A DNA stretch of 38,007 bases from a virus. Taxonomy: Duplodnaviria; Heunggongvirae; Uroviricota; Caudoviricetes. The stretch lies in the IMG/VR virus record IMGVR_UViG_2740892426_000005, one strand, 5' to 3'. Positions 1,449-27,296 of this stretch are shown in pieces. The notes beneath the pieces were generated by a model, which saw only the letters and a list, made by a program, of their open reading frames with translations, did not search any database and had not been told where the DNA came from. Numbering within the stretch: the first letter of the stretch is position 1; each line of letters starts with the position of its first letter. The position numbers were made by a program, and so were the translations under genes.

Positions 1449-2018
1449 TTATCTAACATATTTAACTGTTAAACTTATAATTTTACCAATTATTTCAATG
1501 TCTTCTATCTTACATTCGAAGGCTCTGTTTCCACCCTCGACGAAGATTCTTCCACCGGGTAAACGAGTAATGTCACGGATCGTTACTTCGCCATCAATAC
1601 TTATTACCCATTTACCATCACGTATGTCATCAAATTCTTTATCACAAATAAATTCAGAATTGTTATCTGTGATGACAAAAGGTTTTTTAAACGTAGAGGG
1701 TAGAAATCCCTTATCAAAAATATAAAAACCGTCTTCACGCAAGGCACCATCAGATAATACATATTTAGCAACTTCCATAGTATTTGTATTACCTGAAGTT
1801 TGCTTTGAACCATGTCCGGTTGTGAGCCAATTAAGCGAGGTGCCCGTTTCAAGGGCGCACTGGATTACCCATTCTGCTGGGAATGAGTCACGCATGTAGC
1901 GTGTGGCGAGTGTACTTTTAGAGATTCCTAAATGATCGCACAACGCCTGTCGAGTCTTGAATCCATAAGCTTCTACCATGCGCTCTATGGCGCCTCGTCC
2001 GCCTTTCTCCAAATTCAT
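1449..2018 (-). CDS. cI: CI-type immunity repressor (189 aa), phage 186 CI-like
   Basis: N-terminal HTH (RQALCDHLGISKSTLATRYMR), length close to 186 CI, position next to int and divergent from apl/cII. Start at ATG 2018 (RBS GGAG) rather than the GTG at 2024. Confidence 0.7.
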   Translation of the reverse strand: MNLEKGGRGAIERMVEAYGFKTRQALCDHLGISKSTLATRYMRDSFPAEWVIQCALETGTSLNWLTTGHGSKQTSGNTNTMEVAKYVLSDGALREDGFYIFDKGFLPSTFKKPFVITDNNSEFICDKEFDDIRDGKWVISIDGEVTIRDITRLPGGRIFVEGGNRAFECKIEDIEIIGKIISLTVKYVR

Positions 2019-2042
2019 GGTCACTCCGAGTGAACTTTTATC

Positions 2043-2071
2043 TTGACGATTTCACTGTGCGATCGTATGTT
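2043..2071 (+). promoter_or_regulatory. candidate rightward early promoter pR (-35 TTGACG, 17-nt spacer, -10 TATGTT)
   Basis: Sigma70-like hexamers read directly in the cI-apl intergenic region; the direct repeat CGATC(C)GTAT at about 2060 and 2092 may be operator half-sites. The convergent pL was not convincingly located. Confidence 0.4.
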
Positions 2072-2143
2072 TATGGTGTTCACAAAATACAAACGATCCG
2101 TATTCGTCCTGATTAATCATCATTAAACGAGGAATGTTGCATC

Positions 2144-2365
2144 ATGAGACCTAACATTTCAATCACTCTTACCACGCCTCATGTGACTATTGAACGCTAT
2201 AGCGAGCTGACAGGGCTATCCATCGATACCATCAATGACATGTTGGCTGATGGACGCCTTATCCGTCACCGTCTGCGCAAAGATAAAAAACGCGAAAAAG
2301 TGATGATCAACATAGCAGCAATGACCGTTGATGCGCTTTCAGAATGCAATCTAAACCTTAATTAG
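2144..2365 (+). CDS. apl: Apl/Cox-like small DNA-binding excision and switch protein (73 aa)
   Basis: First gene of the rightward operon opposite cI, small basic protein with HTH-like segment; assignment by position and size. Confidence 0.5.
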
Positions 2366-2397
2366 TTCGATTCTGAAATACATCAGAGGCATTGACC

Positions 2398-2907
2398 ATG
2401 TTTGATTACCAAGTTTCCAAACATCCACATTTTGATGAAGCCTGTCGTGCATTTGCACTGCGCCACAATCTGGTGCAACTGGCAGAACGTGCAGGCATGA
2501 ATGTGCAGATTCTGCGGAACAAGCTGAACCCAGCTCAGCCTCATTTATTAACCGCACCAGAAATCTGGCTGCTTACCGATCTGACTGAAGATTCAACGCT
2601 GGTAGATGGTTTTCTGGCACAGATTCATTGTCTGCCATGTGTACCGATTAATGAGGTGGCAAAAGAGAAACTGCCACATTACGTCATGAGTGCAACCGCA
2701 GAGATCGGGCGTGTTGCTGCAGGTGCGGTGTCTGGCGATGTAAAAACCTGTGCCGGTCGTCGTGATGCTATCAGCAGCATTAACTCTGTAACACGACTGA
2801 TGGCGCTGGCTGCTGTTTCATTGCAGGCCCGTTTACAGGCTAATCCTGCGATGGCGAGTGCAGTTGATACCGTGACTGGCCTCGGTGCTTCATTCGGTTT
2901 GCTGTGA
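2398..2907 (+). CDS. cII: CII-like establishment activator (169 aa)
   Basis: Length from ATG 2398 equals 186 CII (169 aa); follows apl; RBS AGAGG. The ORF-track start at 2392 is a TTG. Confidence 0.6.
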
Positions 2908-2914
2908 GGTGCTT

Positions 2915-3106
2915 ATGCTGACGAAAGAACCATCATTTGCATCGCTGCTGGTAAAACAAAGCCCGGCAATGCACTACGGTCACGGCTGGATCACGGGTGA
3001 GGATGGAAAACGCTGGCATCCATGTCATTCACAAGATGAATTGCTGTCTGAATTGACCACGAGGAAACGGAGAAAGTCCAAATGTATGCGGCAGAAAGTG
3101 AAGTAG
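2915..3106 (+). CDS. hypothetical early protein (63 aa)
   Basis: ATG with GAGGTG RBS; ORF in the early operon. Confidence 0.4.
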   Translation: MLTKEPSFASLLVKQSPAMHYGHGWITGEDGKRWHPCHSQDELLSELTTRKRRKSKCMRQKVK

Positions 3107-3306
3107 TTTATCAGTTTCGTTACAGAGGGGAGAGTTATTCAGTACCTGAAGATGATTTGCTCTGTTGCTATCCGTCATTGTCGGGAGATGGCAGTTACTT
3201 TTTCACGTTAAAGGATGGGACGTTTTTACGGGGAGAGCAGGTTAAAGAGACGATACGAAAAAATGTATCTCCTCTTGAGCGTTACCGTAAGAACAAAGAA
3301 CGATAG
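3082..3306 (+). CDS. hypothetical early protein (74 aa)
   Basis: ORF with upstream GGAG; early operon context. Confidence 0.4.
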   Translation: MYAAESEVVYQFRYRGESYSVPEDDLLCCYPSLSGDGSYFFTLKDGTFLRGEQVKETIRKNVSPLERYRKNKER

Positions 3307-3328
3307 CTGCGTTTGGGGAATATGAAGT

Positions 3329-3670
3329 ATGGCAATTAATGGCGCTGCAGCAACTGTTCCATTAAGCCCCGGTGAACGCCTGAATGGACTTAATCACATT
3401 GCGGAGTTAAGGGCGAAAGTTTTTGGCCTGAATATTGAGTCAGAGCTTGAGCGGTTTATTAAAGATATGCGTGATCCACGGGATATCAATAATGAACAAA
3501 ATAAACGGGCACTGGCTGCCATATTCTTTATGGCAAAAATTCCAGCTGAACGTCATAGCATCAGCATTAATGAGCTGACCACTGACGAAAAGCGGGAGCT
3601 GATTAAAGCAATGAATCATTTTCGTGCAGTGGTGAGCTTATTTCCCAGACGGCTAACCATGCCGAATTAA
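3329..3670 (+). CDS. hypothetical early protein (113 aa)
   Basis: ORF in early operon; no family recognised. Confidence 0.45.
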   Translation: MAINGAAATVPLSPGERLNGLNHIAELRAKVFGLNIESELERFIKDMRDPRDINNEQNKRALAAIFFMAKIPAERHSISINELTTDEKRELIKAMNHFRAVVSLFPRRLTMPN

Positions 3671-3737
3671 CCAACTAATGAAATTAATGGCGTAAACCCG
3701 CCGGGCATCCCTTTATCTAAATTCAGGAGAATTGATT

Positions 3738-3971
3738 ATGCGTAATATTGAAACCCTCTCGACCAAAACCGGACCGGATGACGCAGGGCTTAATATTTTA
3801 CTGACAGAGGCTCGTCTGGAAGAACGCCGGGCAAGAGCAGAGGCAATGGCTGCCCGCCTTGATAGCCTTGCGTGCCATATCACATCCCGCCAGCTAAACC
3901 ACGTCGAAGCGGCAGAACTGCTGCGCGTGACTGCTGAAGCAATCCAGAACGAAGCGCAGGAGATCCACTAA
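3738..3971 (+). CDS. hypothetical early protein (77 aa)
   Basis: ATG 3738 with AGGAGA RBS 7 nt upstream; the ORF-track start at 3732 is a TTG. Confidence 0.45.
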   Translation: MRNIETLSTKTGPDDAGLNILLTEARLEERRARAEAMAARLDSLACHITSRQLNHVEAAELLRVTAEAIQNEAQEIH

Positions 3972-4198
3972 TGGCTGATGCAATGGATCTCGTACAGCAG
4001 CGCGTTGAAGAAGAACGCCAGCGTCATATCCGTGCTGCCCGTGCCAAAACGCCGGGCGTGTCCCGCGTGCTTTGCATTGAGTGTGAAGCGCCAATTCCGC
4101 CAGCACGCCGCCGTGCCATTCCAGGTGTGCAGCTTTGCATTACCTGTCAGGAAATCGCAGAGCTGAAAGGCAAACATTACAACGGAGGTGCTGTATGA
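3971..4198 (+). CDS. TraR/DksA-family C4 zinc-finger protein (75 aa)
   Basis: CxxC-N17-CxxC (CIECEAPIPPARRRAIPGVQLCITCQ); the same position as the small zinc-finger ORF upstream of gene A in P2. Confidence 0.7.
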   Translation: MADAMDLVQQRVEEERQRHIRAARAKTPGVSRVLCIECEAPIPPARRRAIPGVQLCITCQEIAELKGKHYNGGAV

Positions 4199-5052
4199 GC
4201 ACCATCCTGAAATGGGCGGGAAATAAAACCGCCATTATGTCCGAACTGAAAAAGCATCTTCCTGCTGGCCCGCGACTGGTTGAACCTTTCGCGGGTTCCT
4301 GTGCAGTGATGATGGAGACGGAGTACCCCAGCTATCTTGTTGCGGATATTAATCCTGATTTAATCAACCTCTATAAAAAGGTTGCTGCTGATTGTGAATC
4401 GTTTATATCTCGCGCCAGAGTTTTATTTGAGATCGCAAACAGGGAGGTGGCTTATTACAACATAAGGCAGGAGTTTAATTACTCAACTGAAATTACTGAT
4501 TTCATGAAAGCGGTATATTTCCTGTATCTCAATCGTCACGGTTACCGTGGTTTATGTCGCTATAACAAGAGCGGGCATTTCAACATTCCCTACGGCAATT
4601 ATAAAAATCCGTATTTCCCTGAAAAAGAAATTCGCGCATTTGCAGAAAAAGCCCAGCGAGCAACGTTTATCTGCGCCAGCTTTGATGAAACGCTGGCGAT
4701 GTTGAAGGCGGGGGATGTGGTGTATTGCGATCCACCGTATGACGGTACGTTTTCCGGCTATCACACTGATGGTTTCACTGAAGATGACCAGTATCACCTA
4801 GCATCCGTTCTTGAACATCGGTCATCAGAAGGACATCCGGTCATTGTTTCTAACAGTGACACATCCCTGATCCGTTCGCTGTATCGCAATTTTACTCACC
4901 ACTATATCAAGGTAAAACGCAGCATCGGTGTGGCAGCTGGCGAGGGTAAATCAGCAACAGAAATCATTGCTGTTTCCGGGCCGCGCTGCTGGGTGGGATT
5001 TGATTATTCGCGTGGCGTGGATAGTTCTGCCGTGTACGGAGTACGTGCATGA
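4195..5052 (+). CDS. dam: Dam-family N6-adenine DNA methyltransferase (285 aa)
   Basis: N-terminal LKWAGNK and FAGSCAV AdoMet motif, catalytic DPPY; start ATG 4195 with GGAGGTG RBS, overlapping the TraR-like stop; stop overlaps gene A start (ATGA). Confidence 0.85.
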
Positions 5053-7463
5053 GCCATGCCGATATGAACAACTGCTGCGGCTTTAACGAGGCTGCCGCAG
5101 CGTTCTCATGGAACAGCCCGAAAAAGGCCATTAACCCTTATCTGGACCCGGCGGAAGTTGCGCCGGTTTCTGCGCTTTCAAACCTGATCACTCTGTACGC
5201 TGCCGATAACGAGCAGGAACAGTTGCGCCGCGAGGCACTGAGTGATCAGGTCTGGGAGCGTTATTTTTTTAATGAATCACGTGATCCTGTCCAGCACGAA
5301 ATGGAGCAGGATAAGCTCATTAGCCGGGCAAAGCTGGCGCATGAGCAGCAGCGTTTTAATCCGGATATGGTCATTCTGGCGGACGTCAACGCCCAGCCTT
5401 CCCATATCAGCAAGCCGCTGATGCAACGTATTGAATACTTCAGCAGCCTGGGCAGGCCAAAGGCTTATTCCCGCTATTTACGTGAGACGATTAAGCCATG
5501 TCTGGAACGACTGGAGCATGTACGCGACAGCCAGCTATCTGCATCTTTTCGTTTTATGGCAAGCCATGTAGGGCTGGACGGCCTGCTGATTCTGCCTGAA
5601 ATGAGTCAGGATCAGGTGAAACGCCTGTCTACCCTTGTCGCTGCGCATATGAGCATGTGCCTTGATGCAGCTTGTGGTGATTTGTATGCCACCGATGACG
5701 TTAAGCCAGAAGAAATCCGCAAGACATGGGAAAAGGTGGCAGCGGAAACCCTGCGTCTGGATGTCATCCCGCCTGCGTTTGAGCAACTCCGTCGGAAAAG
5801 AAACCGCCGTAAACCCGTGCCCTATGAACTCATTCCGGGTTCGCTGGCGCGTATGTTGTGCGCCGACTGGTGGTACCGGAAATTATGGAAAATGCGTTGC
5901 GAATGGCGGGAAGAGCAGTTGCGTGCTGTCTGCCTAGTCAGCAAAAAAGCATCTCCCTATGTCAGCTATGAAGCCGTGATGCATAAACGTGAGCAGCGCC
6001 GCAAGTCACTGGAGTTTTTCCGTTCTCATGAACTGGTGAACGAAGAGGGCGACACGCTGGATATGGAAGACGTGGTAAACGCCAGCAGCAGCAACCCGGC
6101 GCACCGCCGCAATGAGATGATGGCCTGTGTTAAAGGTCTGGAGCTTATCGCGGAAATGCGCGGTGACTGCGCCGTTTTCTACACCATTACCTGTCCGTCA
6201 CGTTTCCATTCCACGCTCAATAACGGCAGACCAAACCCAACCTGGACAAATGCGACGGTAAGACAAAGCAGCGATTATCTGGTCGGCATGTTTGCTGCAT
6301 TTCGTAAGGCGATGCACAAAGCCGGGTTGCGCTGGTATGGCGTGCGGGTGGCTGAGCCGCATCATGACGGTACAGTTCACTGGCACCTGTTGTGTTTTAT
6401 GCGCAAAAAAGACCGCCGCGCCATTACTGCATTGTTGCGTAAGTTTGCCATCCGTGAAGACCGCGAGGAACTGGGTAATAACACTGGTCCACGCTTTAAA
6501 TCTGAGCTGATAAACCCGCGCAAAGGAACGCCGACAAGCTACATCGCGAAATACATCAGTAAGAACATTGACGGGCGTGGTCTGGCTGGCGAGATCAGCA
6601 AGGAAACGGGTAAATCCCTGCGTGATAACGCTGAATACGTTAATGCCTGGGCGTCTCTGCATCGTGTTCAGCAATTCCGCTTCTTTGGTATTCCAGGGCG
6701 TCAGGCTTACCGTGAACTGCGGTTGTTGGCTGGTCAGGCGGCAAGGCAGCAGGGTGACAAAAAAGCAGGTGCGCCGGTACTGGATAACCCGCGCCTTGAT
6801 GCCATCCTGGCTGCTGCTGATGCTGGCTGTTTTGCCACCTACATTATGAGGCAGGGCGGCGTGCTGGTTCCTCGCAAATATCACTTGATCAGAACCGCTT
6901 ATGAAATCAATGAAGAGCCGACCGCCTATGGCGATCACGGTATTCGTATTTATGGCATCTGGTCACCCATTGCAGAAGGCAAGATCTGCACTCATGCAGT
7001 GAAGTGGAAAATGGTTCGTAAAGCCGTTGACGTTCAGGAGGCGGCAGCCGACCAGGGCGCTTGCGCCCCTTGGACTCGTGGCAATAACTGTCCCCTTGCT
7101 GAAAATTTGAACCAACAGGAGAAAGATAAATCAGCTGATGGGGACACCAGAACGGACATTACCCGCATGGATGACAAGGAGTTGCACGATTACTTGCACA
7201 GTATGAGCAAAAAAGAGCGCCGGGAACTGGCTGCAAGGTTACGCCTGGTTAAACCGAAACGGCGTAAAGACTACAAACAGCGAATTACAGACCATCAGCG
7301 ACTGCAGCTCGTCTATGAGCTGAAGTCCAGAGGATTTGATGGTAGCGAGAAAGAGGTCGATTTACTCCTTCGCGGCGGCAGTATTCCGTCAGGAGCAGGC
7401 CTGCGTATCTTCTATCGGAACCAGCGTTTGCAGGAAGATGATAAGTGGCGGAACCTGTATTAA
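5049..7463 (+). CDS. A: replication initiation protein A, rolling-circle nickase (804 aa)
   Basis: P2 gpA-like size and position; HUH-type motif region [10 protein letters not shown]; translationally coupled to dam. Confidence 0.9.
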
Positions 7464-7532
7464 TTACGCGGGTTAACAATTCGTGCTCTTAATAATACCA
7501 GGCATATCAGGCTGATGAACGTAAAAAAACGT

Positions 7533-7561
7533 TTTACATCAGTAATATTATTATATACTGT
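7533..7561 (+). promoter_or_regulatory. candidate SOS promoter (-35 TTTACA, -10 TACTGT) overlapped by the LexA box
   Basis: Hexamers read directly; the -10 overlaps the CTGT half of the LexA box. Confidence 0.45.
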
Positions 7562-7575
7562 AAATATAAACAGTG
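7556..7575 (+). promoter_or_regulatory. LexA operator (SOS box) TACTGTAAATATAAACAGTG
   Basis: Perfect CTGT-N8-ACAG with AT-rich spacer, about 40 nt upstream of the ORF at 7616. Confidence 0.7.
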
Positions 7576-7615
7576 GTTATGTATACAGTATTGATTTGGT
7601 GTCATAGGAGGAAAG

Positions 7616-7804
7616 ATGCAGGACTATTTTTTGGAGTCTTTGAAGCTCCAGCGCATTGATTTTTTTCTTAAGCTTGTAGCGGCTAGTGAGTGTAGTGATG
7701 AAGAGAAGGGGCTGGCTCTGCAGTGGGTTTCTGAACTGACAGATGAACTCATGGCAAAAATCAGAACCCACGAATACAACCGCTCAATGGATGTCATCAG
7801 CTGA
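7616..7804 (+). CDS. small SOS-controlled protein (62 aa), possible Tum-like antirepressor module
   Basis: AGGAGG RBS 5 nt upstream of ATG; directly downstream of the LexA box; 186 places its LexA-controlled tum operon at this position. Function is inferred by position only. Confidence 0.45.
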   Translation: MQDYFLESLKLQRIDFFLKLVAASECSDEEKGLALQWVSELTDELMAKIRTHEYNRSMDVIS

Positions 7805-7814
7805 GGTGACTTTT

Positions 7815-8048
7815 ATGCGCATTGAAATAATGATCGATAAAGAGCAGAAGATTAGCCAGTCTACACTGGACGCCCTTGAATCCGAGCTTTACCGCAATCT
7901 GCGCCCCCTGTATCCCAAAACGGTAATCCGTATCCGTAAAGGTAGCTCTAACGGTGTGGAACTGACCGGACTGCAACCGGACGAAGAAAGAAAACAAGTG
8001 ATGAAAATTATGCAGAAGGTGTGGGAAGACGACAGCTGGCTGCATTAA
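7815..8048 (+). CDS. dinI: DinI-family protein (77 aa)
   Basis: MRIEIMIDKEQ... start and ...MQKVWEDDSWLH C-terminus resemble DinI (MRIEV... and acidic W-containing C-terminus); GAGGTGA RBS overlapping the upstream stop. Confidence 0.7.
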   Translation: MRIEIMIDKEQKISQSTLDALESELYRNLRPLYPKTVIRIRKGSSNGVELTGLQPDEERKQVMKIMQKVWEDDSWLH

Positions 8049-8492
8049 GAAATGTTGCCCCCAGGAGGATTCATTCTAATGGGGGCTAGTTTGGGCAACG
8101 AGTGAAACGAGGCGTAAGGTGGGTAATCATTTTGATAAGTGATCGCCCACTTTGTGCCAAAAGCGGACATCGCAGATATGACAATATGTTAGTCAACCGC
8201 GATTAGATCAGTCAGTTGGAGATGGGGGGAAGTTACAAAAACTTGTCGTCCGCCATCTCCGACTACGGGTATTCTTAACTGTACATGCTCTTTCAATCGA
8301 TGATTTTTGAGTAAGTGACTAACCTATTGTTTTGATAGTAATTAAACGTATAAACGTGCGGAGTTAATTTGAAAGTTATGTGTCTATGTTTGACAAGCAA
8401 AATTTTAAAGATTGGTTTTATCCACAGGTAATTTATGCTATTAATAGCCTCAAGCCCTGTAATTATTTTTATTTAAATGGATAAATTTGAAA

Positions 8493-10613
8493 ATGAGTAC
8501 ATATCATAATGATCAGCCAATACTAGGTGGTCAAAATGACCCCGATTTATTAAACAGGCTCGATTTTGCAAATCACTTGGCAAATATTCTACTATTAAAT
8601 CACAATGATGATTGCCTTACTGTATCTATAGAGGCAGAGTGGGGATATGGTAAAACGTCAGTGATAAATCTTATAAAAGGTGCTTTGAATGAAAAGGAGT
8701 TCTTACCAATAATAATAGAATATAATCCATGGCTGGCCGGTCAACCTGAATCCTTGATTCAGGATTTTTTATTACAGTTCTCTTCACAACTAAATATTAA
8801 AGACAATTCAAAAGCTGCTTTGGAAGCTTCAAAAGAATTAATTGCATACTCCAATCTCTTCAGTGTAGCAAAACTTATTCCAGGGACAGAACCTTGGGCA
8901 TCTATCATAGAAAAAGTCCTCTCTAATTTTGGGAGTGCTACTAAAAAGATTGCTGAATTAAAAAAACTGGATCTTTTAGGTAGAAAAAAACAAGTAGAGA
9001 AGGCAATAAAAAAAATAAAAAATCCTATTGTGGTAATAATTGATGATATTGATCGATTGACTCCTACAGAAACTTTTCAAGTTTTACGATTGGTTAAAGC
9101 TGTTGCAGATTTCTCAGGAACTTCTTTTTTACTTGCATTTGATCCTAATTATTTGATTTCTGTGCTTGATAAAAATAATATCGTCAATTCTTCGGAGTAT
9201 CTTAATAAAATTGTTCAACTTCGAGTCCCACTTCCTGTAATCTCAGAAAGGGGTATGAATGAACTTGCAAATGCAGAACTGGAAAAGATAGCTAATAAAT
9301 CTTTAACTGACAGATTCGAAAGTGATCAAGAAAGACTAAGCTGGATTTATCATAATTATTTTAAAAAGCTAATTAAGAATCCGAGAGAGTTAAAAAGATT
9401 TTTTAACCATTTGAGATTCGTTTTAGAGCAAATTGAAGGGCAGGTATGTTTTTCTGATCTCTTTGCTTTATCTCTGGTCGCCACTAAATCGAGTTTGGTA
9501 TACGAGCATATTAAAAGCACACCAGAGGCATATATAGGGAAGAGATTCACTAATGATGGCCTTTTGATGGATAAACCTCAAGATATTGTGGATAGATTTA
9601 GTGATGAGCGAAATAAGAAACTGAGTAATTTTTCTGATCAAGAGCGTTCAGTGATGCAGGAACTCTTAGGAGATATTTTCCCACTTCTACAGTCAAGCGG
9701 GTATTCTCATTATGGGGTTTCTGATCCCGATACAGCAGGAAGGGTTTCTGCACCACAAAGGCTTCATATTGCGTTTCATTATAAAACTCCAGCAGGGTAT
9801 ATTTCTGATCATGATATTATCAGTTTCATTAATGGAGATGTTAAAAGAAACGAATTTCTAAGAGATGTGCTCTCGCAAAATGCAGAAGAAAGATTTTTTG
9901 AAATGATGAATAATTATTCGAGTTATTGTAAGGATAATAGTTTTGAAATATTAACGTGTATTTATGATACTTTTCTGTTTTCTCAAGAATTGAAATCCTC
10001 ATTGGAAAGAAACTATGGTTTTTTGACAAAAGATCTTTATAGAAGGATGAATTGGCTCACTAATAAGGTAATATCTGAAAGTGATGATAAATATGGGTTG
10101 ATAAAGGGGGTTGTAGGTAGGCATGAGAATGCGCCACTTGGTGCAGACGTATTATGCCAAGCTCGTAAACAGATTCAAAATGGATGGAATGACAAAATAT
10201 GGGTTAGTATTGAAGAATTGGCTGAACTTGAAGGTATCTTTCAACAGGTGGCTATTAAAGTTTTAAGTGATAAAATATATTTTGATTATCATCTTGAATC
10301 TCATATATTTTTCGAATTAAAGAGAGTTTCATCTCAATTTACATCAGAGTTTATTGCTTCTGTATTATCAAGTGATGGCCTGATTAGGATGTGTGAGATT
10401 ATTGGTGAAACAGGTAGTGATTCAACAAATGGCCCTTATTTTAAGTTTGATGAAATTTACTTCGGGGAAATACTTGATGTGAATGAACTTCGAAATAAAG
10501 CGAAAAATTTAGATTTTTCAATTTATCCCACACGCATTCAAGCTGTACTTAAGAGTATTCTGGATGGACAAAAATATTATTTGAGAGATGCAACTGTTGG
10601 TGAAGATTGGTAA
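8493..10613 (+). CDS. KAP-family P-loop NTPase (706 aa), candidate accessory/defence gene
   Basis: Walker A in KAP context (EAEWGYGKTS), Walker B (VVIIDDIDR), long helical C-terminal region; AT-rich by eye. Start at ATG 8493; the ORF-track start at 8487 is a TTG. Confidence 0.7.
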   Translation: MSTYHNDQPILGGQNDPDLLNRLDFANHLANILLLNHNDDCLTVSIEAEWGYGKTSVINLIKGALNEKEFLPIIIEYNPWLAGQPESLIQDFLLQFSSQLNIKDNSKAALEASKELIAYSNLFSVAKLIPGTEPWASIIEKVLSNFGSATKKIAELKKLDLLGRKKQVEKAIKKIKNPIVVIIDDIDRLTPTETFQVLRLVKAVADFSGTSFLLAFDPNYLISVLDKNNIVNSSEYLNKIVQLRVPLPVISERGMNELANAELEKIANKSLTDRFESDQERLSWIYHNYFKKLIKNPRELKRFFNHLRFVLEQIEGQVCFSDLFALSLVATKSSLVYEHIKSTPEAYIGKRFTNDGLLMDKPQDIVDRFSDERNKKLSNFSDQERSVMQELLGDIFPLLQSSGYSHYGVSDPDTAGRVSAPQRLHIAFHYKTPAGYISDHDIISFINGDVKRNEFLRDVLSQNAEERFFEMMNNYSSYCKDNSFEILTCIYDTFLFSQELKSSLERNYGFLTKDLYRRMNWLTNKVISESDDKYGLIKGVVGRHENAPLGADVLCQARKQIQNGWNDKIWVSIEELAELEGIFQQVAIKVLSDKIYFDYHLESHIFFELKRVSSQFTSEFIASVLSSDGLIRMCEIIGETGSDSTNGPYFKFDEIYFGEILDVNELRNKAKNLDFSIYPTRIQAVLKSILDGQKYYLRDATVGEDW

Positions 10614-10729
10614 TACTTTTATAGGCATGCTTAGAGATGATGGAGTATCTTTTTCTCCCTTTTGAGGAAGTGATTTCCAACTGGGCATGGATGCCACATC
10701 AAATGGACAGTTGTTGTCACCTGTCAGTT

Positions 10730-10753
10730 AGCTGCTATTTGTTTATAGCAGCT
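10730..10753. other. perfect 9-bp stem-loop (AGCTGCTAT / ATAGCAGCT) downstream of the KAP gene
   Basis: Inverted repeat read directly; no flanking T-run, so not a canonical intrinsic terminator. Confidence 0.3.
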
Positions 10754-11057
10754 GAAAGCCCACTACATAGTTACACCAGAAGGAGTAACAATGTAGTGGA
10801 TAGCTAAATTTGACCACCTTAACAGATATGTTAATTTCCCCCCCCTCGCTCACAGCGGACTTTCATCTTTGTAAACCCTTATAATTCGCTTTTCAGCGGT
10901 CATTCAGATACGGATTTACGCTTTCCTTGGCAGTGCATGACTATGACGCATGAGATCGCATGATCGTTTGAGGATCGTTTTTGCTGAGGCCAGCCAGAAC
11001 TGGCGTGCTTTTGCTTATGTCATGCAGGTGCATGAAAACCACTACATAAAGTGGGCA

Positions 11058-11076
11058 GGCGTGGCGGGGATACGAT
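11058..11076. other. cos cohesive-end site GGCGTGGCGGGGATACGAT (P2/186-like)
   Basis: 16/19 match to the 186 cohesive end as I recall it (GGCGTGGCGGGGAAAGCAT); lies in the expected A-to-Q interval in a locally GC-richer patch. Confidence 0.6.
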
Positions 11077-11133
11077 TGCGCGCGCAAGCTAAAGTGGCAA
11101 TAATGAGCATGTAAGGTAAAATTCAAGGAGATT

Positions 11134-11250
11134 ATGATGTATATCTGCGAAAGTCACATTGTTGAATCAAATATAAAAACTAATTTTTTCGCAAAATATA
11201 CGAGGTATTTGTGCTTTTTGTTGTGCAGATACTGTTTGTTTAGATACTGA
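11134..11250 (+). CDS. 38-codon ORF with strong RBS (AAGGAG-N4-ATGATG), out of frame with the downstream RES ORF; possible frameshifted 5' end of that gene
   Basis: Read directly; overlaps the stop-free upstream extension (11177 onward) of the RES reading frame; T6 tract at 11184-11189 and T5 at 11215-11219. Confidence 0.35.
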   Translation: MMYICESHIVESNIKTNFFAKYTRYLCFLLCRYCLFRY

Positions 11251-11269
11251 TTCTTCAGAAGTACGTAAT

Positions 11270-12286
11270 TTGTTGAAAGCTATTCTGAGATATCATTATG
11301 ATGAAGTCGATTACAATACTCATTTTGGAGGGGAGTATTACCCGAGTTTTCTATTGGAAGATGATTTTATTTTCACCAAGGATATACAGGAGCATGATGA
11401 ATCTTTTGGGGAACTCGATAGCGAATTGTGGGATATGGCATTTGATAGTGAGGGAATAAATATTTATGCAGGCTATGGATCTGATGGTCTATATAATACG
11501 CCATATATGTCTATCAGAAATGCACATCAGCCATTTTTAGATTCTCTGTCAAAACAGCTTTCAGAAAAGAATTACCATGATTTTGAAGGTGAGCTAAGAA
11601 GTATTATAAAAGGTTATGGTGATATTTTTTCGAAGATAATAGAAGGAAGTTCTGTGGTATATAGAGCCAGAGTTGGGACTGCTGGCTATAAAACAGCACT
11701 TAGAGGATTTAGCCGTGAAGGAAAGAAAATATTTGTTCCATTTAAAGATAAGGAAATAGGAGCCGTGCCACCACTAAAGGCTACTGCTGGCAGGGCTAAT
11801 AGAGCAGGCGTTTCTTACCTTTATTGTGCTACAGATAGTTATACTGCAATTGCGGAAGTTCGACCTCATCCAACAGATGTGGTTTCAATTGGTAAATTTA
11901 GAGTTGCAAAAGCATTAAAGGTATTCGATTTTTCTTATCCTAATTTTTTAGAGTTTATTGAGAGTGATGAAAGTTTATTATCCATGATACCATATGCAAA
12001 GATGGCAGGTATTTTTAATACTGCAACTCCACCTTCCTTAGAAGGAAGATATAGTGTGTCCCAACTAATATCTGATTGTATAAGGAAAGAGGGGTATGAT
12101 GGTATACAATTTTCAAGTACAGTTGGTAAAGGTAAGAACTTGGTTGTTTTTAATCCTTCATGTATGGAATTTATAGATGGTTCATCAAAAGTAATAGAAA
12201 TTGACAAGGTTCAGTATATTTACGAGGAAAAGCAGGTTGTTGGTATGAATGATCAATGGGAGATTTATTACGATGAAGTTGAATAA
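11270..12286 (+). CDS. RES-domain protein with about 165-aa N-terminal extension (338 aa as called); candidate NAD-targeting toxin/abortive-infection effector
   Basis: RES signature residues in context: GRANRAGVSYLYCATDSYTAIAEV (Arg, Glu) and GYDGIQFSSTVGKGKNLVVF (Ser). The called start is TTG with a weak RBS; the frame is open from 11177; the first in-frame ATG is at 11435. AT-rich by eye. Confidence 0.6.
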   Translation: MLKAILRYHYDEVDYNTHFGGEYYPSFLLEDDFIFTKDIQEHDESFGELDSELWDMAFDSEGINIYAGYGSDGLYNTPYMSIRNAHQPFLDSLSKQLSEKNYHDFEGELRSIIKGYGDIFSKIIEGSSVVYRARVGTAGYKTALRGFSREGKKIFVPFKDKEIGAVPPLKATAGRANRAGVSYLYCATDSYTAIAEVRPHPTDVVSIGKFRVAKALKVFDFSYPNFLEFIESDESLLSMIPYAKMAGIFNTATPPSLEGRYSVSQLISDCIRKEGYDGIQFSSTVGKGKNLVVFNPSCMEFIDGSSKVIEIDKVQYIYEEKQVVGMNDQWEIYYDEVE

Positions 12287-12291
12287 GTGAT

Positions 12292-12329
12292 AATAGCCCC
12301 ATTGAGAATTTTCATTTCTCTTGGGGCTA
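12292..12329. terminator. stem-loop between convergent RES and Q genes (TAGCCCCA...TGGGGCTA with inner GAGAA/TTCTC)
   Basis: Inverted repeat read directly; no strong T-run, so function as a terminator is uncertain. Confidence 0.3.
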
Positions 12330-12338
12330 ACTTAAATA

Positions 12339-13370
12339 TTAATCAAAGCAATATGAATTGAATGTAATTAAATCTTCACCTAGCCAATCATTGACCTCCT
12401 CCATCCTTTTTTGTAAAGGTAGCAACTCGTTTCGAACAAACACATTAGCAGCCTTCTCCACATCCCCAAATCCCCCGAGATTATTTGGCATTATCCCCAT
12501 CATCTGTGGCGGCACGCGGTGTGCTGCCATCATGTCATCGCGACTAACATTTTTGATATTCAGAAATTCATCCTTCGCCGCGACTTCTGACAACGGGATA
12601 ATCTGAAGTCCGTCCTTTTTGCCGTTCGGCGAGTACATAAACAGGTTGCGGAAGTTGCCCGGACCTTTGGCGCTTTTCATCGCATTACGGAGGTTGTTCA
12701 CATCTTCCTGGTTCTGCGCGGCATCGGTCATGTACATGATGAAGCCTGCATGACTACCGTTAATGTAATACTTCCGGCGGAACAGCGTGGCGGACTCGTT
12801 GAGCAGGGCTGACGGAATGGCAGAAAGATAACCGGGCAGGCCGTAGATCTCCTGGTTGATATCCGGTTCCATCAGGTGAAAAATGCTGCCTTTCGTGAAC
12901 TGATACGGCTGTGTAGTCATGCCGTATTGCACAAACCAGTAGGTATCCAGGTCTAACCCGCGTCGGGTGTATTTTGCCAGCGCAGGCTCAAGGGCGATAA
13001 CTTCACCGAATCGGTTCGTGCGTTTCTCCAGGTAGGCGTTACCAAATACCAGATAGTCCTGCACAAAACGTGAAAAAGCCTGCTGGCTGAGCAGCGGGTG
13101 AGGGATGTAGGTACTGGTCAGAATGTTGCACTTTACTGCAATCGGGGAACTGTGATGCACTGCAGCGCGGAAGGTGCGCGCCAGTCCGTCAAAGCTGACG
13201 GGCGGCTCATACCAACGGTCCATCTGTACGCATTCCACATAGTCCAGTAATTCTCGGCGGTCCAGAACAGGAACGGGATCGCCGAAGCTGAATGCTTCGG
13301 CTGTAGTTTGACTTTTAAGCTGGATCTGTTTCGTCGCCGCAGCGCGGTTCTTCTTACTCTTTCCCATCAA
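12339..13370 (-). CDS. Q: portal protein (343 aa)
   Basis: P2 gpQ-like size and position; coupled to P (ATGA overlap). Confidence 0.9.
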   Translation of the reverse strand: MMGKSKKNRAAATKQIQLKSQTTAEAFSFGDPVPVLDRRELLDYVECVQMDRWYEPPVSFDGLARTFRAAVHHSSPIAVKCNILTSTYIPHPLLSQQAFSRFVQDYLVFGNAYLEKRTNRFGEVIALEPALAKYTRRGLDLDTYWFVQYGMTTQPYQFTKGSIFHLMEPDINQEIYGLPGYLSAIPSALLNESATLFRRKYYINGSHAGFIMYMTDAAQNQEDVNNLRNAMKSAKGPGNFRNLFMYSPNGKKDGLQIIPLSEVAAKDEFLNIKNVSRDDMMAAHRVPPQMMGIMPNNLGGFGDVEKAANVFVRNELLPLQKRMEEVNDWLGEDLITFNSYCFD

Positions 13371-20643: not shown

Positions 20644-21082
20644 ACTGCAGAAGGTGGACGACTGGCTGAGTGCTTTGCTGGCGAATCTGGAACCAGCCGC
20701 AAGAAGCCGCATGATGCGCCAGCTGGCGCAGGAACTGCGCCGGACACAACAGCAGAATATCAGAATGCAGCGCAACCCTGACGGCAGCAGCTATGAACCT
20801 CGACGGGTAACAGCACGCAGTAAAAAGGGGCGCATCAAACGTCAGATGTTTGCAAAGCTGCGCACCACAAAATACCTGAAAACTGCAGCCAGCGCCGATT
20901 CTGCCAGCGTGCAGTTTGAAGGTAAGGTGCAGCGCATTGCCCGTGTTCACCATTACGGCCTCCGTGATCGCGTCAGTCGCAAAGGACCGGAGGTCCGCTA
21001 TGCAGAGCGCCGCCTGTTGGGTCTTAATGGTGAGTCTTATGTTCTAACTCTTGATATATTGAATAGATTCCTTCTGTCTTGA
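20636..21082 (+). CDS. S: tail completion protein S (148 aa); last ~19 codons lie in AT-rich inserted DNA
   Basis: GTG start overlapping R stop; P2 gpS-like size; 3' end overlaps the convergent membrane-protein gene by 59 nt. Confidence 0.75.
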   Translation: MAELQKVDDWLSALLANLEPAARSRMMRQLAQELRRTQQQNIRMQRNPDGSSYEPRRVTARSKKGRIKRQMFAKLRTTKYLKTAASADSASVQFEGKVQRIARVHHYGLRDRVSRKGPEVRYAERRLLGLNGESYVLTLDILNRFLLS

Positions 21083-21830
21083 ATTCACCATATGCCCAAT
21101 GAATTGCATTTTTTTGTTCAGTTAGAATATATTTCCTAACTTTTTTAGAATAGTGAATGGTCAGTATAAAACCCAAAGAAATCCATAATAGAATAAATAT
21201 AGTTGTTGGGGCAAAGGAATAGATAAAAAATTTGTCTTTAACGAAATTCTTGACTTCTTCATCAATGTAAGCATTCCCTTCATCAGTGGTTAGTAGTTTA
21301 CAAAGAATTTCTTTATGTTCGATAGTTAATGATTTGTACTTCTCTGTACTGGCAGAGGATGACTCTTCGCAATCATCCTTTGATATTTCCCAATCAGGAG
21401 TGGTTAATATTGTAGCTGCAGTCGCCATTTTTTTTGACATATAAAATGATTCACCGGACTTTATCCAATAAAGCAATGTGCTATTTGGTGGGGTTCTAAT
21501 GGCTTGGATGAAAACTGGACCAAAAAGATAAATTGCACACAAAAAAAGAAGCGAAAATAGAACCGTGATTGATTTTTCAGCCCATGTGATAGTAGGCAGC
21601 TTTTTTAATGATATTTTTATAAGAAAAAAATTTAATATAAACGCAGGTATTCCTGATTTTTTCAAAATTACATCATGAGATTTTCTATATTTGAATAGTG
21701 CTCTTATAACTATCGTCACCAAAGTTATAACAGCTCCAATAATGGAAATCCATGCGGCAAGTGCCGCTGCCGGGGTGTTTAAAAATTCAGCATTAAATAT
21801 ATTAGAACTTATTGGATTCATAACACTCAT
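21024..21830 (-). CDS. accessory membrane protein (268 aa, about 3 TM helices), AT-rich insertion between S and V
   Basis: AGGTGG RBS before ATG 21830; hydrophobic segments at about residues 20-44, 86-108 and 201-224; AT-rich by eye; this is the position of the nonessential orf30 in P2. Confidence 0.6.
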   Translation of the reverse strand: MSVMNPISSNIFNAEFLNTPAAALAAWISIIGAVITLVTIVIRALFKYRKSHDVILKKSGIPAFILNFFLIKISLKKLPTITWAEKSITVLFSLLFLCAIYLFGPVFIQAIRTPPNSTLLYWIKSGESFYMSKKMATAATILTTPDWEISKDDCEESSSASTEKYKSLTIEHKEILCKLLTTDEGNAYIDEEVKNFVKDKFFIYSFAPTTIFILLWISLGFILTIHYSKKVRKYILTEQKNAIHWAYGEFKTEGIYSIYQELEHKTHH

Positions 21831-21869
21831 TTATCCACCTATTGGTTGTTTTTTATCCTTTTGTCAATT

Positions 21870-21887
21870 TGTACCATCGATACCACA
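21870..21887 (+). promoter_or_regulatory. Ogr-type late activator site TGT-N12-ACA upstream of V
   Basis: TGTACCATCGATACCACA, ending 46 nt before the V start codon. Confidence 0.5.
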
Positions 21888-21933
21888 ATTTGCAAGAAGT
21901 TATAAACAAGTTTTCATCTGTCATCATATATCT

Positions 21934-22512
21934 ATGAACGCACAATTAACCGAAATCATGCGCCTTATCACCAATCTGATCCGCACAGGTGTAGTCACCG
22001 AAGTGGACCGGGAAAACTGGCTTTGTCGGGTGAAAACGGGCGACCTTGAAACCAACTGGATTAACTGGCTGACGCTGCGCGCGGGTAATGCCCGCACATG
22101 GTGGAAACCATCGGAAGGTGAGCAGGTGGTGCTGCTGAGTCTGGGCGGCAATCTGGAGACTGCCTTTGCGTTGCCCGCCATCTATTCGAATCAGTTCGCT
22201 CCACCGTCGACGTCGGCGGACGCCTGCGTGACAGAACATCCTGACGGCGGCTGGTTTGAATATGAACCCGCCACCGGGCGCTGGTATGTCAGGGGCATCA
22301 AATCAATGGTCATTGAGGCCGCTGACAACATCACCATGAAAACCAGTGAGTTTGTACTGGAGGCTGACCGCACGCGCATTAACAGCGAAGTGGTGATCAA
22401 TGGTGGCGTTACCCAGGGCGGCGGAGCGATGAGTTCTAACGGGATCGTGGTTGATGCGCATCAGCATACTGGCGTCCTGAAAGGCGGCGATACAACCGGA
22501 GGCCCGGTATGA
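21934..22512 (+). CDS. V: baseplate spike/assembly protein V (192 aa)
   Basis: P2 gpV-like; start at ATG 21934 (the ORF-track upstream extension reads through the promoter region). Confidence 0.85.
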   Translation: MNAQLTEIMRLITNLIRTGVVTEVDRENWLCRVKTGDLETNWINWLTLRAGNARTWWKPSEGEQVVLLSLGGNLETAFALPAIYSNQFAPPSTSADACVTEHPDGGWFEYEPATGRWYVRGIKSMVIEAADNITMKTSEFVLEADRTRINSEVVINGGVTQGGGAMSSNGIVVDAHQHTGVLKGGDTTGGPV

Positions 22513-26868: not shown

Positions 26869-26870
26869 TT

Positions 26871-27227: not shown

Positions 27228-27241
27228 AACGTTTAAGAAAA
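27216..27241. repeat. cix/gix/hix-like inversion site 2 (TTCTCCTAAACC-AA-CGTTTAAGAAAA)
   Basis: Reverse complement TTTTCTTAAACG-TT-GGTTTAGGAGAA matches site 1 in 10/12 right-arm positions with the same central TT; about 55 nt upstream of the invertase gene. Confidence 0.6.
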
Positions 27242-27296
27242 TGCAGCGATTACGACTAACTGGCATCATCCCCGATTTTTATTCAAGGAGATGATC

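What the first reader, a model, noticed from the sequence alone, without database searches (positions are those of the whole stretch)
8049..12338. AT-rich accessory island replacing old/tin in the P2 A-to-Q hotspot, spanning cos
Between the conserved replication gene A / dinI-like gene and the portal gene Q, about 4.3 kb is visibly AT-rich compared with flanking phage genes. It carries two large ORFs with no role in P2 morphogenesis or replication (a KAP NTPase and a RES-domain protein), plus 438 bp and 656 bp of non-coding DNA with hairpins and the cos site. In P2 this interval holds old and tin, and P2-like phages are known to exchange anti-phage cargo here. The specific pairing seen here is not one I recognise as a described system.
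Basis: partly seen in the sequence, partly recalled or inferred. Interest (0 to 1): 0.7.

Follow-up and report, generated by a model that had tools for sequence, protein, structure and literature searches.

The report
Two independent phage cargo genes flanking cos
The AT-rich stretch is the known cargo hotspot of a 186/P2-like prophage. It is really two separately swappable slots either side of the packaging site cos: one holds a PifA-like KAP ATPase, the other a stand-alone RES toxin gene that is frameshifted in this copy. It is an untested example of a known kind, not a new two-gene system.

Summary
Window 8049-12338 has 35.5% GC, against at least 45.4% in every other 4.3-kb window. It carries a KAP NTPase gene (8493-10613) and a RES-domain gene, and cos lies between them at 11058-11076.

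The "one island, one pairing" reading does not hold. A backbone block with normal GC (10846-11085, 49.6%) contains cos and splits the region into two slots. Slot A (8169-10845) holds the KAP gene. Slot B (11086-12338) holds the RES gene and is empty in P2 and 186.

The slots reassort freely. Among 5,426 complete E. coli genomes, KAP occurs in 20, RES in 6, and both in 2. Neither gene has a conserved partner elsewhere.

KAP shares only its ATPase module with F-plasmid PifA (26% identity) and has its own C-terminal domain. The RES protein is a 384-aa fusion of a zinc-ribbon N-terminal domain to a RES domain, with no antitoxin. Here a 2-bp deletion in an A-run truncates it after 38 codons.

This exact gene arrangement is already listed, untested, in Rousset et al. 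2022. Both genes are most likely independent single-gene abortive-infection candidates. That function is inferred, not shown.

The parts
7556..7574 (+). LexA box (TACTGTAAATATAAACAGT). It is the equivalent of the SOS promoter p95 of phage 186, upstream of the tum/dinI-like operon that leads into slot A.
   Evidence: Exact match to CTGT-N8-ACAG: 3 matches in the window against 0.35 expected. Phage 186 annotates p95, a LexA site, tum, the partial terminator t95a and orf97 at the same place.
7616..7804 (+). 62-aa backbone ORF (phrog_698), conserved among sister prophages.
   Evidence: PHROG hit at 3.6e-38. Annotated as WP_001154434 in all sister loci.
7815..8048 (+). DinI-like gene (backbone).
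   Evidence: Pfam DinI at 2e-22. Annotated in the sister loci.
8057..8086 (+). Hairpin just after dinI, still in backbone, at the position of phage 186 partial terminator t95a.
   Evidence: Inverted repeat with 14-nt arms. Homology with sister phages runs on to 8148/8168. t95a is annotated in 186.
8169..10845 (.). Cargo slot A (dinI to cos block), GC 0.341, replaced wholesale in sister prophages.
   Evidence: blastn breakpoints are 8168/10846 (L003) and 8148/10919 (L004). GC.
8493..10613 (+). KAP-family P-loop NTPase, 706 aa from the ATG at 8493 (708 aa from the TTG at 8487). It has a PifA-type ATPase module (about aa 1-475) and a family-specific helical C-terminal domain (about aa 475-708). 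It is soluble.
10730..10799 (+). Two hairpins downstream of the KAP stop, inside slot A. They are putative terminators of the cargo gene.
   Evidence: Inverted repeats at 10730-10753 (9-nt arms, perfect) and 10760-10799 (18-nt arms, 89%).
10846..11085 (.). Conserved cos block (backbone), GC 0.496. It holds the terminase recognition region on the right-arm side plus the cohesive-end sequence.
   Evidence: Shared with all sister loci. 87-93% identical over 10932-11087 in 79 phage records from Klebsiella, Yersinia and Salmonella, including Fels-2. Aligns to the right end of 186. GC.
11058..11076 (+). cos cohesive-end sequence, 19 nt.
   Evidence: Unique exact match. 186 has GGCGTGGCGGGGAAAGCAT and P2 has GGCGAGGCGGGGAAAGCAC, both annotated as cos and both followed by TGCGCGC as here.
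11086..12338 (.). Cargo slot B (cos to the portal stop), GC 0.345. It is empty (about 170 bp, terminator only) in P2 and 186, and holds DprA(-PRTase) in sister prophages.
   Evidence: Breakpoints 11085/12360 against L002. P2 and 186 annotation. DprA at this place in L002 and in 34 E. coli genomes.
11134..12286 (+). Stand-alone RES-domain gene. It encodes a zinc-ribbon/helical N-terminal domain of about 165 aa fused to a RES ADP-ribosyltransferase-fold domain, and is 384 aa when intact. In this window it is frameshifted: the A7 run is A5 at 11175-11179, a stop falls at 11248-11250 after 38 codons, and the rest reads as the 338-aa ORF at 11270-12286.
12294..12329 (.). Hairpin between the convergent RES and portal stops, at the position of tQ/tW.
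   Evidence: 8-nt perfect arms. P2 tQ and 186 tW are annotated just downstream of the portal gene.
12339..13370 (-). Portal gene Q/W, the right border of the hotspot (backbone).
   Evidence: 99.7% identical to the annotated portal in L001.

Best explanation
The region is the cos-proximal accessory hotspot of a 186-like (P2-family) prophage. It consists of two independent, horizontally exchanged single-gene cargo modules, one on each side of the conserved cos block.

Shown: two slots that assort independently.
- Each slot has sharp breakpoints against sister prophages.
- Slot A (right genome end) carries a soluble KAP-family NTPase. It has a PifA-type ATPase module and its own C-terminal domain.
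- Slot B lies 9 bp beyond the cohesive end, at the extreme left end of packaged DNA. It carries a stand-alone RES-domain protein whose catalytic residues are conserved. In this copy a 2-bp homopolymer deletion breaks the gene.
- Neither gene has a conserved neighbour elsewhere.

Inferred: function and regulation.
- Both are lysogen-expressed abortive-infection or exclusion genes that protect the host and prophage from other phages.
- The KAP protein would act as an NTP-driven switch. Its variable C-terminal domain would recognise a phage product and trigger a growth-arresting activity, as PifA does for T7.
- The intact RES protein would be held inactive by its fused zinc-ribbon N-terminal domain, which would stand in for the separate Xre antitoxin of RES-Xre modules. 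On a phage cue it would degrade or phosphorolyse NAD+, or ADP-ribosylate a target, and arrest the cell.
- The low GC marks foreign origin and probably places both genes under H-NS silencing.
- Slot A may also receive SOS-induced read-through from the LexA-controlled tum/dinI promoter, as orf97 does in phage 186.
For: Composition: slot A 0.341 GC, cos block 0.496, slot B 0.345, rest of the prophage 0.526.

Breakpoints: L002 shares 7001-11085 and then 12360 onward. L003 shares 7001-8168 and 10846 onward. L004 shares 7001-8148 and 10919 onward.

cos was identified by homology to the annotated cos of 186 and P2.

Reassortment among 5,426 complete E. coli genomes:
- KAP occurs in 20, RES in 6, and both in 2.
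- The DprA slot-B cargo occurs in 34 genomes, 5 of which also carry KAP.
- RES sits next to six different slot-A states: KAP; an unrelated 630-aa KAP; a 141-aa ORF; unknown ORFs of 395 and 178 aa; a 901-aa HSDR_N+S1 protein; or nothing.

No conserved partner:
- In 41 full-length RES loci from many phyla, the only conserved neighbours are P2 core genes. No KAP lies within 8 kb outside the two E. coli arrangements.
- KAP copies are solitary in Vibrio and Enterobacter chromosomal islets, and in a different P2 slot (gpD-ogr) in E. coli 100181.

Defence context:
- The gpA-gpQ hotspot is rich in validated defence systems, including DprA-PRTase, which here occupies slot B.
- The KAP protein matches the PADLOC PifA model at 1.3e-64.
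- Single proteins made of a KAP NTPase plus an unknown C-terminal region were shown to be antiphage (PMC13552941).
- The best structural matches of the KAP model are RdrA of RADAR.
- Relatives keep residues 1 to about 475 but vary in the C-terminal ~230 aa.

RES protein:
- The fold and catalytic residues are conserved.
- 3 of 45 aligned family members match Pfam HEPN_RES_NTD1.

Regulation: AT-rich P2-like cargo is bound by H-NS (preprint 10.64898/2026.09.05.749240).
Against: - No experiment shows antiphage activity for either protein family. The RES protein matches no PADLOC model even at E <= 10 and no PHROG. I found no paper validating a solo RES defence.
- The RES gene is broken in this window, so at most one of the two modules works here, unless the deletion is a sequencing error.
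- KAP similarity to F PifA is limited to the ATPase module (26% identity, aa 45-362), and pifC is absent.
- The KAP family is unusually well conserved, at least 68% identical from Escherichia to Vibrio and Aeromonas. That is atypical for fast-evolving defence genes and could point to another role.
- The ATPase half of the KAP model has low confidence: pLDDT 67.6 overall and below 50 for 190 residues.
- Promoters were not identified convincingly. The promoter scan found no more hits than shuffled sequence.
Confidence: 0.7

Rival explanations
1. KAP and RES form one two-gene system that works across cos. The KAP NTPase would be the sensor or regulator and RES the NAD+-targeting effector, which is the pairing the first reader suspected.
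For: Both genes are on the same strand and only 520 bp apart, counting from the true RES start. Five of the six RES-carrying complete E. coli genomes have a KAP-family NTPase in slot A, and these belong to two unrelated KAP families. NTPase-plus-effector pairs are common in defence; RADAR RdrA is the best fold match.
Against: - 16 of the 18 slot-A KAP genomes lack RES, and 5 of them carry DprA instead.
- RES occurs with four non-KAP slot-A states.
- None of 33 non-P2 full-length RES loci has a KAP within 8 kb.
- KAP is solitary in Vibrio, Enterobacter and another P2 slot.
- The two genes are separated by the conserved cos block and lie at opposite ends of packaged DNA.
- KAP_NTPase is frequent in this hotspot: 69 entries against 495 DinI entries in the stored part of Table S5A. 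Two KAP partners among about 7 RES arrangements is therefore expected by chance (P about 0.26, my estimate).
Confidence: 0.05
2. The cargo is not antiphage. The genes would be selfish addiction or toxin modules, or morons with another host-directed role such as persistence (as for NatT) or stress response, that merely ride in a permissive insertion site.
For: RES toxins are best known from toxin-antitoxin modules that cause NAD+ depletion, stasis and persistence. About a quarter of P2-like hotspots carry non-defence cargo such as partition systems. The KAP family is strongly conserved across genera. There is no experimental link to phage for either protein.
Against: There is no antitoxin gene next to RES in 41 loci, so classical addiction is unlikely. 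The same slots hold validated defence systems in sister phages. The KAP architecture matches proteins validated as defences, and the PADLOC PifA model hits strongly.
Confidence: 0.15
3. The RES frameshift is an assembly or sequencing error in an A-homopolymer, and the gene is intact in the organism.
For: The only difference is A5 against A7 in a homopolymer. The rest of the 5.1-kb region is 99.9% identical to strain K56-43-un, where the gene is intact. All five near-identical (>=99.6%) copies in complete genomes are intact.
Against: A 2-bp loss is larger than the usual 1-bp homopolymer error. Decay of this cargo is seen elsewhere: KAP is split and an IS1 is inserted in SCU-176, and KAP is split in C21. 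Loss of a potentially toxic gene is plausible.
Confidence: 0.35

Closest known systems
P2/186-family gpA-gpQ cos-proximal defence hotspot (old/tin in P2, orf97 in 186; Rousset et al. 2022, PMC9122126)
   Same: Same position between the replication gene A/dinI and portal Q, next to cos. It is low in GC and swapped between otherwise syntenic prophages. This very arrangement, with the same protein accessions, is listed in their Table S5A.
   Different: The literature treats the interval as one hotspot. Here it resolves into two slots that swap independently, separated by the conserved cos block. P2's old and tin and 186's orf97 are all on the slot-A side, and slot B is empty in both reference phages. 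Neither gene here was among the systems tested.
PifA of the F plasmid (phage T7 exclusion protein)
   Same: KAP-family P-loop NTPase of about 700-740 aa with no transmembrane helix. The N-terminal ATPase module is homologous (26% identity over aa 45-362, E 3e-21; PADLOC PifA model 1.3e-64).
   Different: There is no detectable similarity in the C-terminal ~340 residues. The PADLOC profile is matched only over positions 2-456 of 720. No pifC repressor gene lies upstream. Trigger and phage specificity are unknown.
Single-protein defences made of a KAP NTPase fused to an unknown C-terminal region (EF_KAP and relatives; PLoS Biol 2026, PMC13552941)
   Same: N-terminal KAP NTPase with intact Walker motifs, followed by a long C-terminal region without known domains. 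It is a stand-alone gene on mobile DNA, and the C-terminal part varies among relatives.
   Different: EF_KAP is modelled with two transmembrane helices, whereas this protein has none. No close sequence relationship was established. The host range is Gammaproteobacteria rather than Firmicutes.
RES-Xre type II toxin-antitoxin toxins (MbcT, ParT, NatT, Res of P. putida)
   Different: There is no adjacent Xre/DUF2384 antitoxin in any of 41 loci. The protein is twice as long, with a fused zinc-ribbon plus helical N-terminal domain of about 165 aa that has no solved structural relative. Its NCBIfam ParT score is far below cut-off (12 against 110 bits).
RdrA of the RADAR defence system
   Different: Only 11% identity, with a large rmsd on a low-confidence part of the model. 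No RdrB deaminase partner is present.

Membership tests
P2-family gpA-gpQ cargo hotspot | Located between replication gene A (plus tum/dinI) and portal gene Q, next to cos | tested here: met
   gpA at 5049-7463, DinI at 7815-8048, cos at 11058-11076, portal at 12339-13370.
P2-family gpA-gpQ cargo hotspot | Content differs between otherwise syntenic prophages, with sharp breakpoints | tested here: met
   Breakpoints at 8148/8168, 10846/10919, 11085 and 12360 against L002-L004. 1,144 genomes match the flanks, but only 2 match more than 80% of the interval.
P2-family gpA-gpQ cargo hotspot | Cargo has anti-phage activity | not testable with these tools
   Only homology and context are available. 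This arrangement is listed but was not tested in Rousset 2022.
PifA (F plasmid T7 exclusion) | KAP-family P-loop NTPase domain with Walker A and B motifs | tested here: met
   Pfam KAP_NTPase 2e-46. WGYGKTS at 52-58 and IVVIIDD at 181-187, invariant in 30 homologues.
PifA (F plasmid T7 exclusion) | Full-length homology to F PifA, including the C-terminal half | tested here: not met
   BLASTP gives 26% identity over aa 45-362 only and nothing beyond. The PADLOC profile is matched over positions 2-456 of 720.
PifA (F plasmid T7 exclusion) | pifC repressor gene immediately upstream in one operon | tested here: not met
   F-type plasmid locus L129 has pifC-pifA. Here the upstream gene is dinI, followed by 438 bp without an ORF.
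PifA (F plasmid T7 exclusion) | Aborts T7 infection in response to gp1.2 or gp10 | not testable with these tools
   Needs a plaque assay.
KAP NTPase + unknown C-terminal region single-protein defences (PMC13552941) | N-terminal KAP NTPase fused to a long C-terminal region without known domains, both parts needed | tested here: met
   The architecture criterion is met. Pfam hits lie only in aa 27-311. The C-terminal 440-708 is confidently folded (pLDDT 85-95) and has no family or PDB match. The requirement for both parts was not tested.
KAP NTPase + unknown C-terminal region single-protein defences (PMC13552941) | Transmembrane helices at the N-terminus and within the NTPase domain (as modelled for EF_KAP) | tested here: not met
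   The highest 19-residue Kyte-Doolittle mean is 1.48, so no transmembrane segment is predicted.
KAP NTPase + unknown C-terminal region single-protein defences (PMC13552941) | Acts as a stand-alone gene | tested here: met
   Solitary in Vibrio and Enterobacter islets and in the gpD-ogr slot of another P2-like prophage.
RES-Xre type II toxin-antitoxin | RES-domain fold with conserved catalytic Arg, Glu and Ser | tested here: met
RES-Xre type II toxin-antitoxin | Adjacent Xre/DUF2384 antitoxin gene | tested here: not met
   Only 57 bp separate cos from the ATG, and the convergent portal gene lies downstream. There is no conserved neighbour in 41 full-length loci.
RES-Xre type II toxin-antitoxin | NAD+ degradation or phosphorolysis, or ADP-ribosylation, that arrests growth | not testable with these tools
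   Needs an enzyme assay or a toxicity assay.
HEPN/RES-NTD1 + RES fusion proteins (Pfam PF18870 + PF08808) | N-terminal HEPN_RES_NTD1 domain | tested here: inconclusive
   The E. coli protein has no direct Pfam hit even at E <= 10. However, 3 of 45 full-length aligned family members match PF18870 (best 6.5e-9) and share the invariant Cys4, Cys26 and Cys29.
RADAR (RdrA/RdrB) | RdrA ATPase paired with an RdrB adenosine deaminase gene | tested here: not met

The most novel reading that the evidence does not exclude
The ~385-aa proteins that fuse a zinc-ribbon N-terminal domain (a divergent HEPN/RES-NTD1) to a RES domain, without any antitoxin, would be an unrecognised family of single-gene NAD+-targeting abortive-infection defences. 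Their fused N-terminal domain would serve as both sensor and autoinhibitor. P2-family phages would carry them in a previously unremarked second cargo slot. That slot lies between cos and the portal gene, at the very left end of the packaged genome.
Probability: 0.4. Interest if true: 0.55.

Novelty: new member of a known kind. Interest (0 to 1): 0.35.

Why it matters
The hotspot itself and this gene arrangement are already catalogued, so the finding is mostly ordinary. Three points have some value.

1. The gpA-gpQ hotspot is two slots separated by cos, and they recombine independently. This bears on how defence repertoires are counted and how "systems" are delimited in P2-like phages: adjacent genes there need not belong together.

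2. The RES gene represents a widespread, antitoxin-less RES architecture with no validated function. It has about 120 homologues, from Enterobacteria to Flavobacteria. It is a cheap candidate for a new NAD+-based single-gene defence.

3. The KAP protein belongs to a large family (933 clusters at E <= 1e-30) with a conserved PifA-type ATPase module and variable C-terminal domains. This fits the recently validated idea that KAP NTPases are modular antiphage switches.

Tried and rejected
- Searching the window for the P2 cos sequence with up to 3 mismatches found nothing. The cos here differs in its 3' third and was found by eye, then confirmed by exact search and alignment.
- PADLOC at E <= 10, PHROGs and NCBIfam gave no useful hit for the RES protein.
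- Profile searches of PDB sequences found nothing for either protein.
- Foldseek against viral structures (BFVD) gave only low TM-scores, about 0.2.
- The afdb50 fold library was unavailable.
- Literature searches for RES domains in antiphage defence returned no validated solo-RES system. One PifA/KAP search was swamped by unrelated acronyms.
- The 54-aa ORF 10950-11114, annotated WP_164965840 in RefSeq, was considered as a possible antitoxin or partner. I rejected it because it lies in the conserved cos block, which is present whatever the cargo, and it is cut by cos.
- I looked for a conserved partner of RES in 41 loci and of KAP in Vibrio and Enterobacter. There is none.
- A functional KAP-RES link, suggested by 5 of 6 RES genomes having some KAP, was rejected as the main reading. 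KAP is common in this hotspot and the two KAPs are unrelated.
- The sigma-70 promoter scan was uninformative: 19 sites against 19.5 in shuffles.

Full report
**1. Observation**

The window is a 186-like, P2-family prophage. It has a CI repressor, CII/CP76, a Dam methylase, replication gene A, a tum/dinI-like operon, portal and terminase genes and tail genes. It ends next to ybjL and ybjM.

The finding's interval 8049-12338 has GC 0.355. All 252 other windows of the same length have GC of at least 0.454, with mean 0.529.

- A KAP-family NTPase (Pfam 2e-46).
- A RES-domain protein (Pfam 2e-18).

It also contains the stated non-coding stretches, with several inverted repeats. Terminator-like hairpins are more frequent than in shuffled sequence, 7 against 2.4 +/- 1.6.

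**2. Where cos is, and what that implies**

The P2 cos sequence is not present within 3 mismatches. However, GGCGTGGCGGGGATACGAT occurs once, at 11058-11076.
- The annotated cos of phage 186 is GGCGTGGCGGGGAAAGCAT, and that of P2 is GGCGAGGCGGGGAAAGCAC. Both are followed by TGCGCGC, as here.
- Window 10930-11057 aligns to the right end of the 186 genome up to its last base.
- A block at about 10932-11087 is 87-93% identical in 79 P2-like phage records from Klebsiella, Yersinia and Salmonella.

cos therefore lies between the two ORFs. In packaged DNA the KAP gene sits at the right end and the RES gene at the extreme left end.

In P2 and 186 the interval from cos to the portal stop is about 170 bp and holds only the terminator tQ/tW. 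Here it is 1.26 kb.

**3. Two slots, not one island**

blastn against sister prophages gives sharp breakpoints:
- A prophage with the same KAP but DprA instead of RES (L002) shares 7001-11085 and then 12360 onward.
- Prophages with the same or a related RES but different upstream cargo (L003, L004) share 7001-8168/8148 and then 10846/10919 onward.

This defines three segments, with GC:

| Segment | Coordinates | GC |
|---|---|---|
| Slot A | 8169-10845 | 0.341 |
| cos block (backbone) | 10846-11085 | 0.496 |
| Slot B | 11086-12338 | 0.345 |

The literature treats gpA-gpQ as a single hotspot next to cos.

**4. Independence of the two genes**

Counts among 5,426 complete E. coli genomes:
- The KAP gene occurs in 20 genomes. 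Eighteen are in slot A, and two are at 79% identity in a different P2 slot between gpD and ogr.
- The RES gene occurs in 6.
- Both occur together in 2.
- The DprA slot-B cargo occurs in 34 genomes, 5 of which also carry KAP. DprA is part of the DprA-PRTase system validated by Rousset et al.

Across E. coli and metagenomic P2-like loci, RES sits next to six different slot-A states:
- this KAP;
- an unrelated 630-aa KAP NTPase, with no BLASTP similarity beyond Walker A;
- a 141-aa ORF;
- two unknown ORFs;
- a 901-aa HSDR_N+S1 protein;
- nothing.

Further evidence:
- In 41 full-length RES loci from Enterobacteria, Flavobacteria, Rhizobia, Paenibacillus and others, the only conserved neighbours are P2 core genes in the P2-like subset. 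No KAP lies within 8 kb outside the two E. coli arrangements.
- KAP homologues in Vibrio parahaemolyticus and Enterobacter cloacae are solitary genes in small chromosomal islets.
- Five of six RES genomes do carry some KAP, which is suggestive. But KAP_NTPase is common in this hotspot: 69 entries against 495 DinI entries in the stored part of Rousset Table S5A. Two KAP partners among about seven independent RES arrangements is unremarkable.

I conclude the pairing is a by-product of two adjacent slots.

**5. The KAP protein**

The RefSeq start is the ATG at 8493, giving 706 aa.

Sequence features:
- Walker A (WGYGKTS, 52-58) and Walker B (IVVIIDD, 181-187) are intact and invariant in homologues. 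No transmembrane segment is predicted.
- The PADLOC PifA model matches at 1.3e-64, but only over profile positions 2-456 of 720.
- Direct comparison with F-plasmid PifA gives 26% identity over aa 45-362 and nothing in the C-terminal half. pifC is absent.

Family:
- It is about 707 aa long and at least 68% identical from Escherichia to Vibrio, Aeromonas and Shewanella.
- An exhaustive search found 933 50%-identity clusters at E <= 1e-30. Many ~710-aa proteins match only residues 1 to about 475, so the last ~230 residues are a variable module.

Structure:
- The AlphaFold model is poor for the ATPase half and good for 440-708 (mean pLDDT 67.6).

A 2026 study showed that single proteins made of a KAP NTPase plus an unknown C-terminal region protect Enterococcus from phage, and that they need both the Walker B motif and the C-terminal region (PMC13552941).

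The protein therefore works like PifA or those KAP defences in architecture. It fails full membership of PifA: the C-terminal half and pifC criteria are not met.

**6. The RES protein**

The intact gene (WP_077758113, 384 aa) starts at the ATG that corresponds to window 11134.

In this window the A7 run is A5 at 11175-11179.
- The other five near-identical copies in complete genomes are intact.
- Whether this is decay or a sequencing error cannot be decided here.
- Decay of this cargo does occur. In SCU-176 the KAP gene is split and an IS1A sits between KAP and cos. In C21 the KAP gene is split.

Domain structure:
- A 45-sequence alignment shows invariant Cys4, Cys26 and Cys29, with Cys or His at position 7. 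This is a zinc-ribbon signature.
- It also shows invariant RES residues R177, R179, G219, R220, N222, Y230, E241, R243, S328 and N335.
- The model is confident (pLDDT 91.8, pTM 0.87).
- Three distant family members match Pfam HEPN_RES_NTD1, so the N-terminal domain is probably a divergent member of that domain.

No Xre-type antitoxin is present. No defence-system model or PHROG recognises the protein. I found no paper validating a solo RES defence.

**7. Mechanism (inferred)**

Both genes are probably lysogen-expressed exclusion or abortive-infection genes.

For KAP, NTP-dependent switching would be coupled to recognition of a phage product by the variable C-terminal domain.

For RES, the fused N-terminal domain would replace the antitoxin as an intramolecular inhibitor and sensor. 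On activation the RES domain would deplete or phosphorolyse NAD+, which is established biochemistry for MbcT and Res, or ADP-ribosylate a target as ParT does.

Regulation:
- A perfect LexA box at 7556-7574 precedes the tum/dinI-like operon. In 186 the slot-A gene orf97 is reached from the equivalent SOS promoter through the partial terminator t95a. The hairpin 8057-8086 is at that position.
- AT-rich cargo of a P2-like prophage is bound and silenced by H-NS (preprint).
- I could not identify promoters reliably.

**8. Known or new**

The hotspot is known. This exact arrangement, with the same protein accessions, is listed in Rousset et al. 2022 Table S5A (NZ_KE699321), but it was not among the systems tested.

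The finding is therefore a new, untested member of a known kind.

The parts worth keeping:
- The two-slot structure around cos.
- The antitoxin-less RES fusion as a defence candidate.
- The modular PifA-type KAP family.

Noticed in passing
window 21024-21830 (-), within the low-GC patch 21001-22000: A third AT-rich cargo gene (268 aa, Pfam DUF6216 at 4e-13, GC about 0.34) sits inside the tail-gene cluster. From memory, this is roughly where P2 has orf30. A preprint reports an H-NS peak on a DUF6216 gene in the P2-like prophage of BL21.
   Followed up: partly
window 26428-27863: There is an apparent invertible tail-fibre segment. A tail-fibre assembly gene (Caudo_TAP, 26428-26868) and a tail-fibre C-terminal ORF (Gp53-like_C, 26871-27269) lie on the minus strand. 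A 190-aa Resolvase+HTH_7 invertase of the Gin/Cin/Hin type follows at 27291-27863 (+).
   Followed up: no
window 7556-7574 and 1083-1101: A perfect LexA box lies upstream of the 62-aa ORF and dinI-like operon, the equivalent of phage 186 p95/tum. A second LexA-like site with one mismatch lies near the integrase end.
   Followed up: partly
window 10950-11114 (+): A 54-aa ORF annotated in RefSeq as hypothetical protein WP_164965840 spans the cos cleavage site inside the conserved cos block. It is probably a spurious call.
   Followed up: partly
L119 (E. coli 100181, NZ_CM128595.1) 5993-8128: A 79%-identical copy of the KAP gene is the sole cargo in a different slot of another P2-like prophage, between the gpD-like gene and ogr. 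This shows the gene moves between hotspots.
   Followed up: partly
L130 (E. coli SCU-176) 1594-4613; E. coli C21: Cargo decay occurs in sister prophages. In SCU-176 the KAP gene is split in two, and an IS1A is inserted between KAP and the cos block. In C21 the KAP gene is split.
   Followed up: no
L003 (E. coli KE47) 2472-4364: A second, unrelated KAP-family NTPase (630 aa, Pfam KAP_NTPase at 5e-20) occupies slot A next to the identical RES allele in three complete genomes. The coincidence of two different KAPs beside RES is judged to be chance, but it was not formally tested.
   Followed up: partly
L020, L021, L028 (IMG/VR contigs), just upstream of distant RES homologues: In these three loci with distant RES relatives (24-27% identity), a conserved 176-aa ORF ends 44-296 bp upstream. 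This branch may have a partner protein.
   Followed up: no
window 4135-5052 (+): A D12-class Dam methyltransferase gene lies just upstream of replication gene A (Pfam at 3.5e-76).
   Followed up: no
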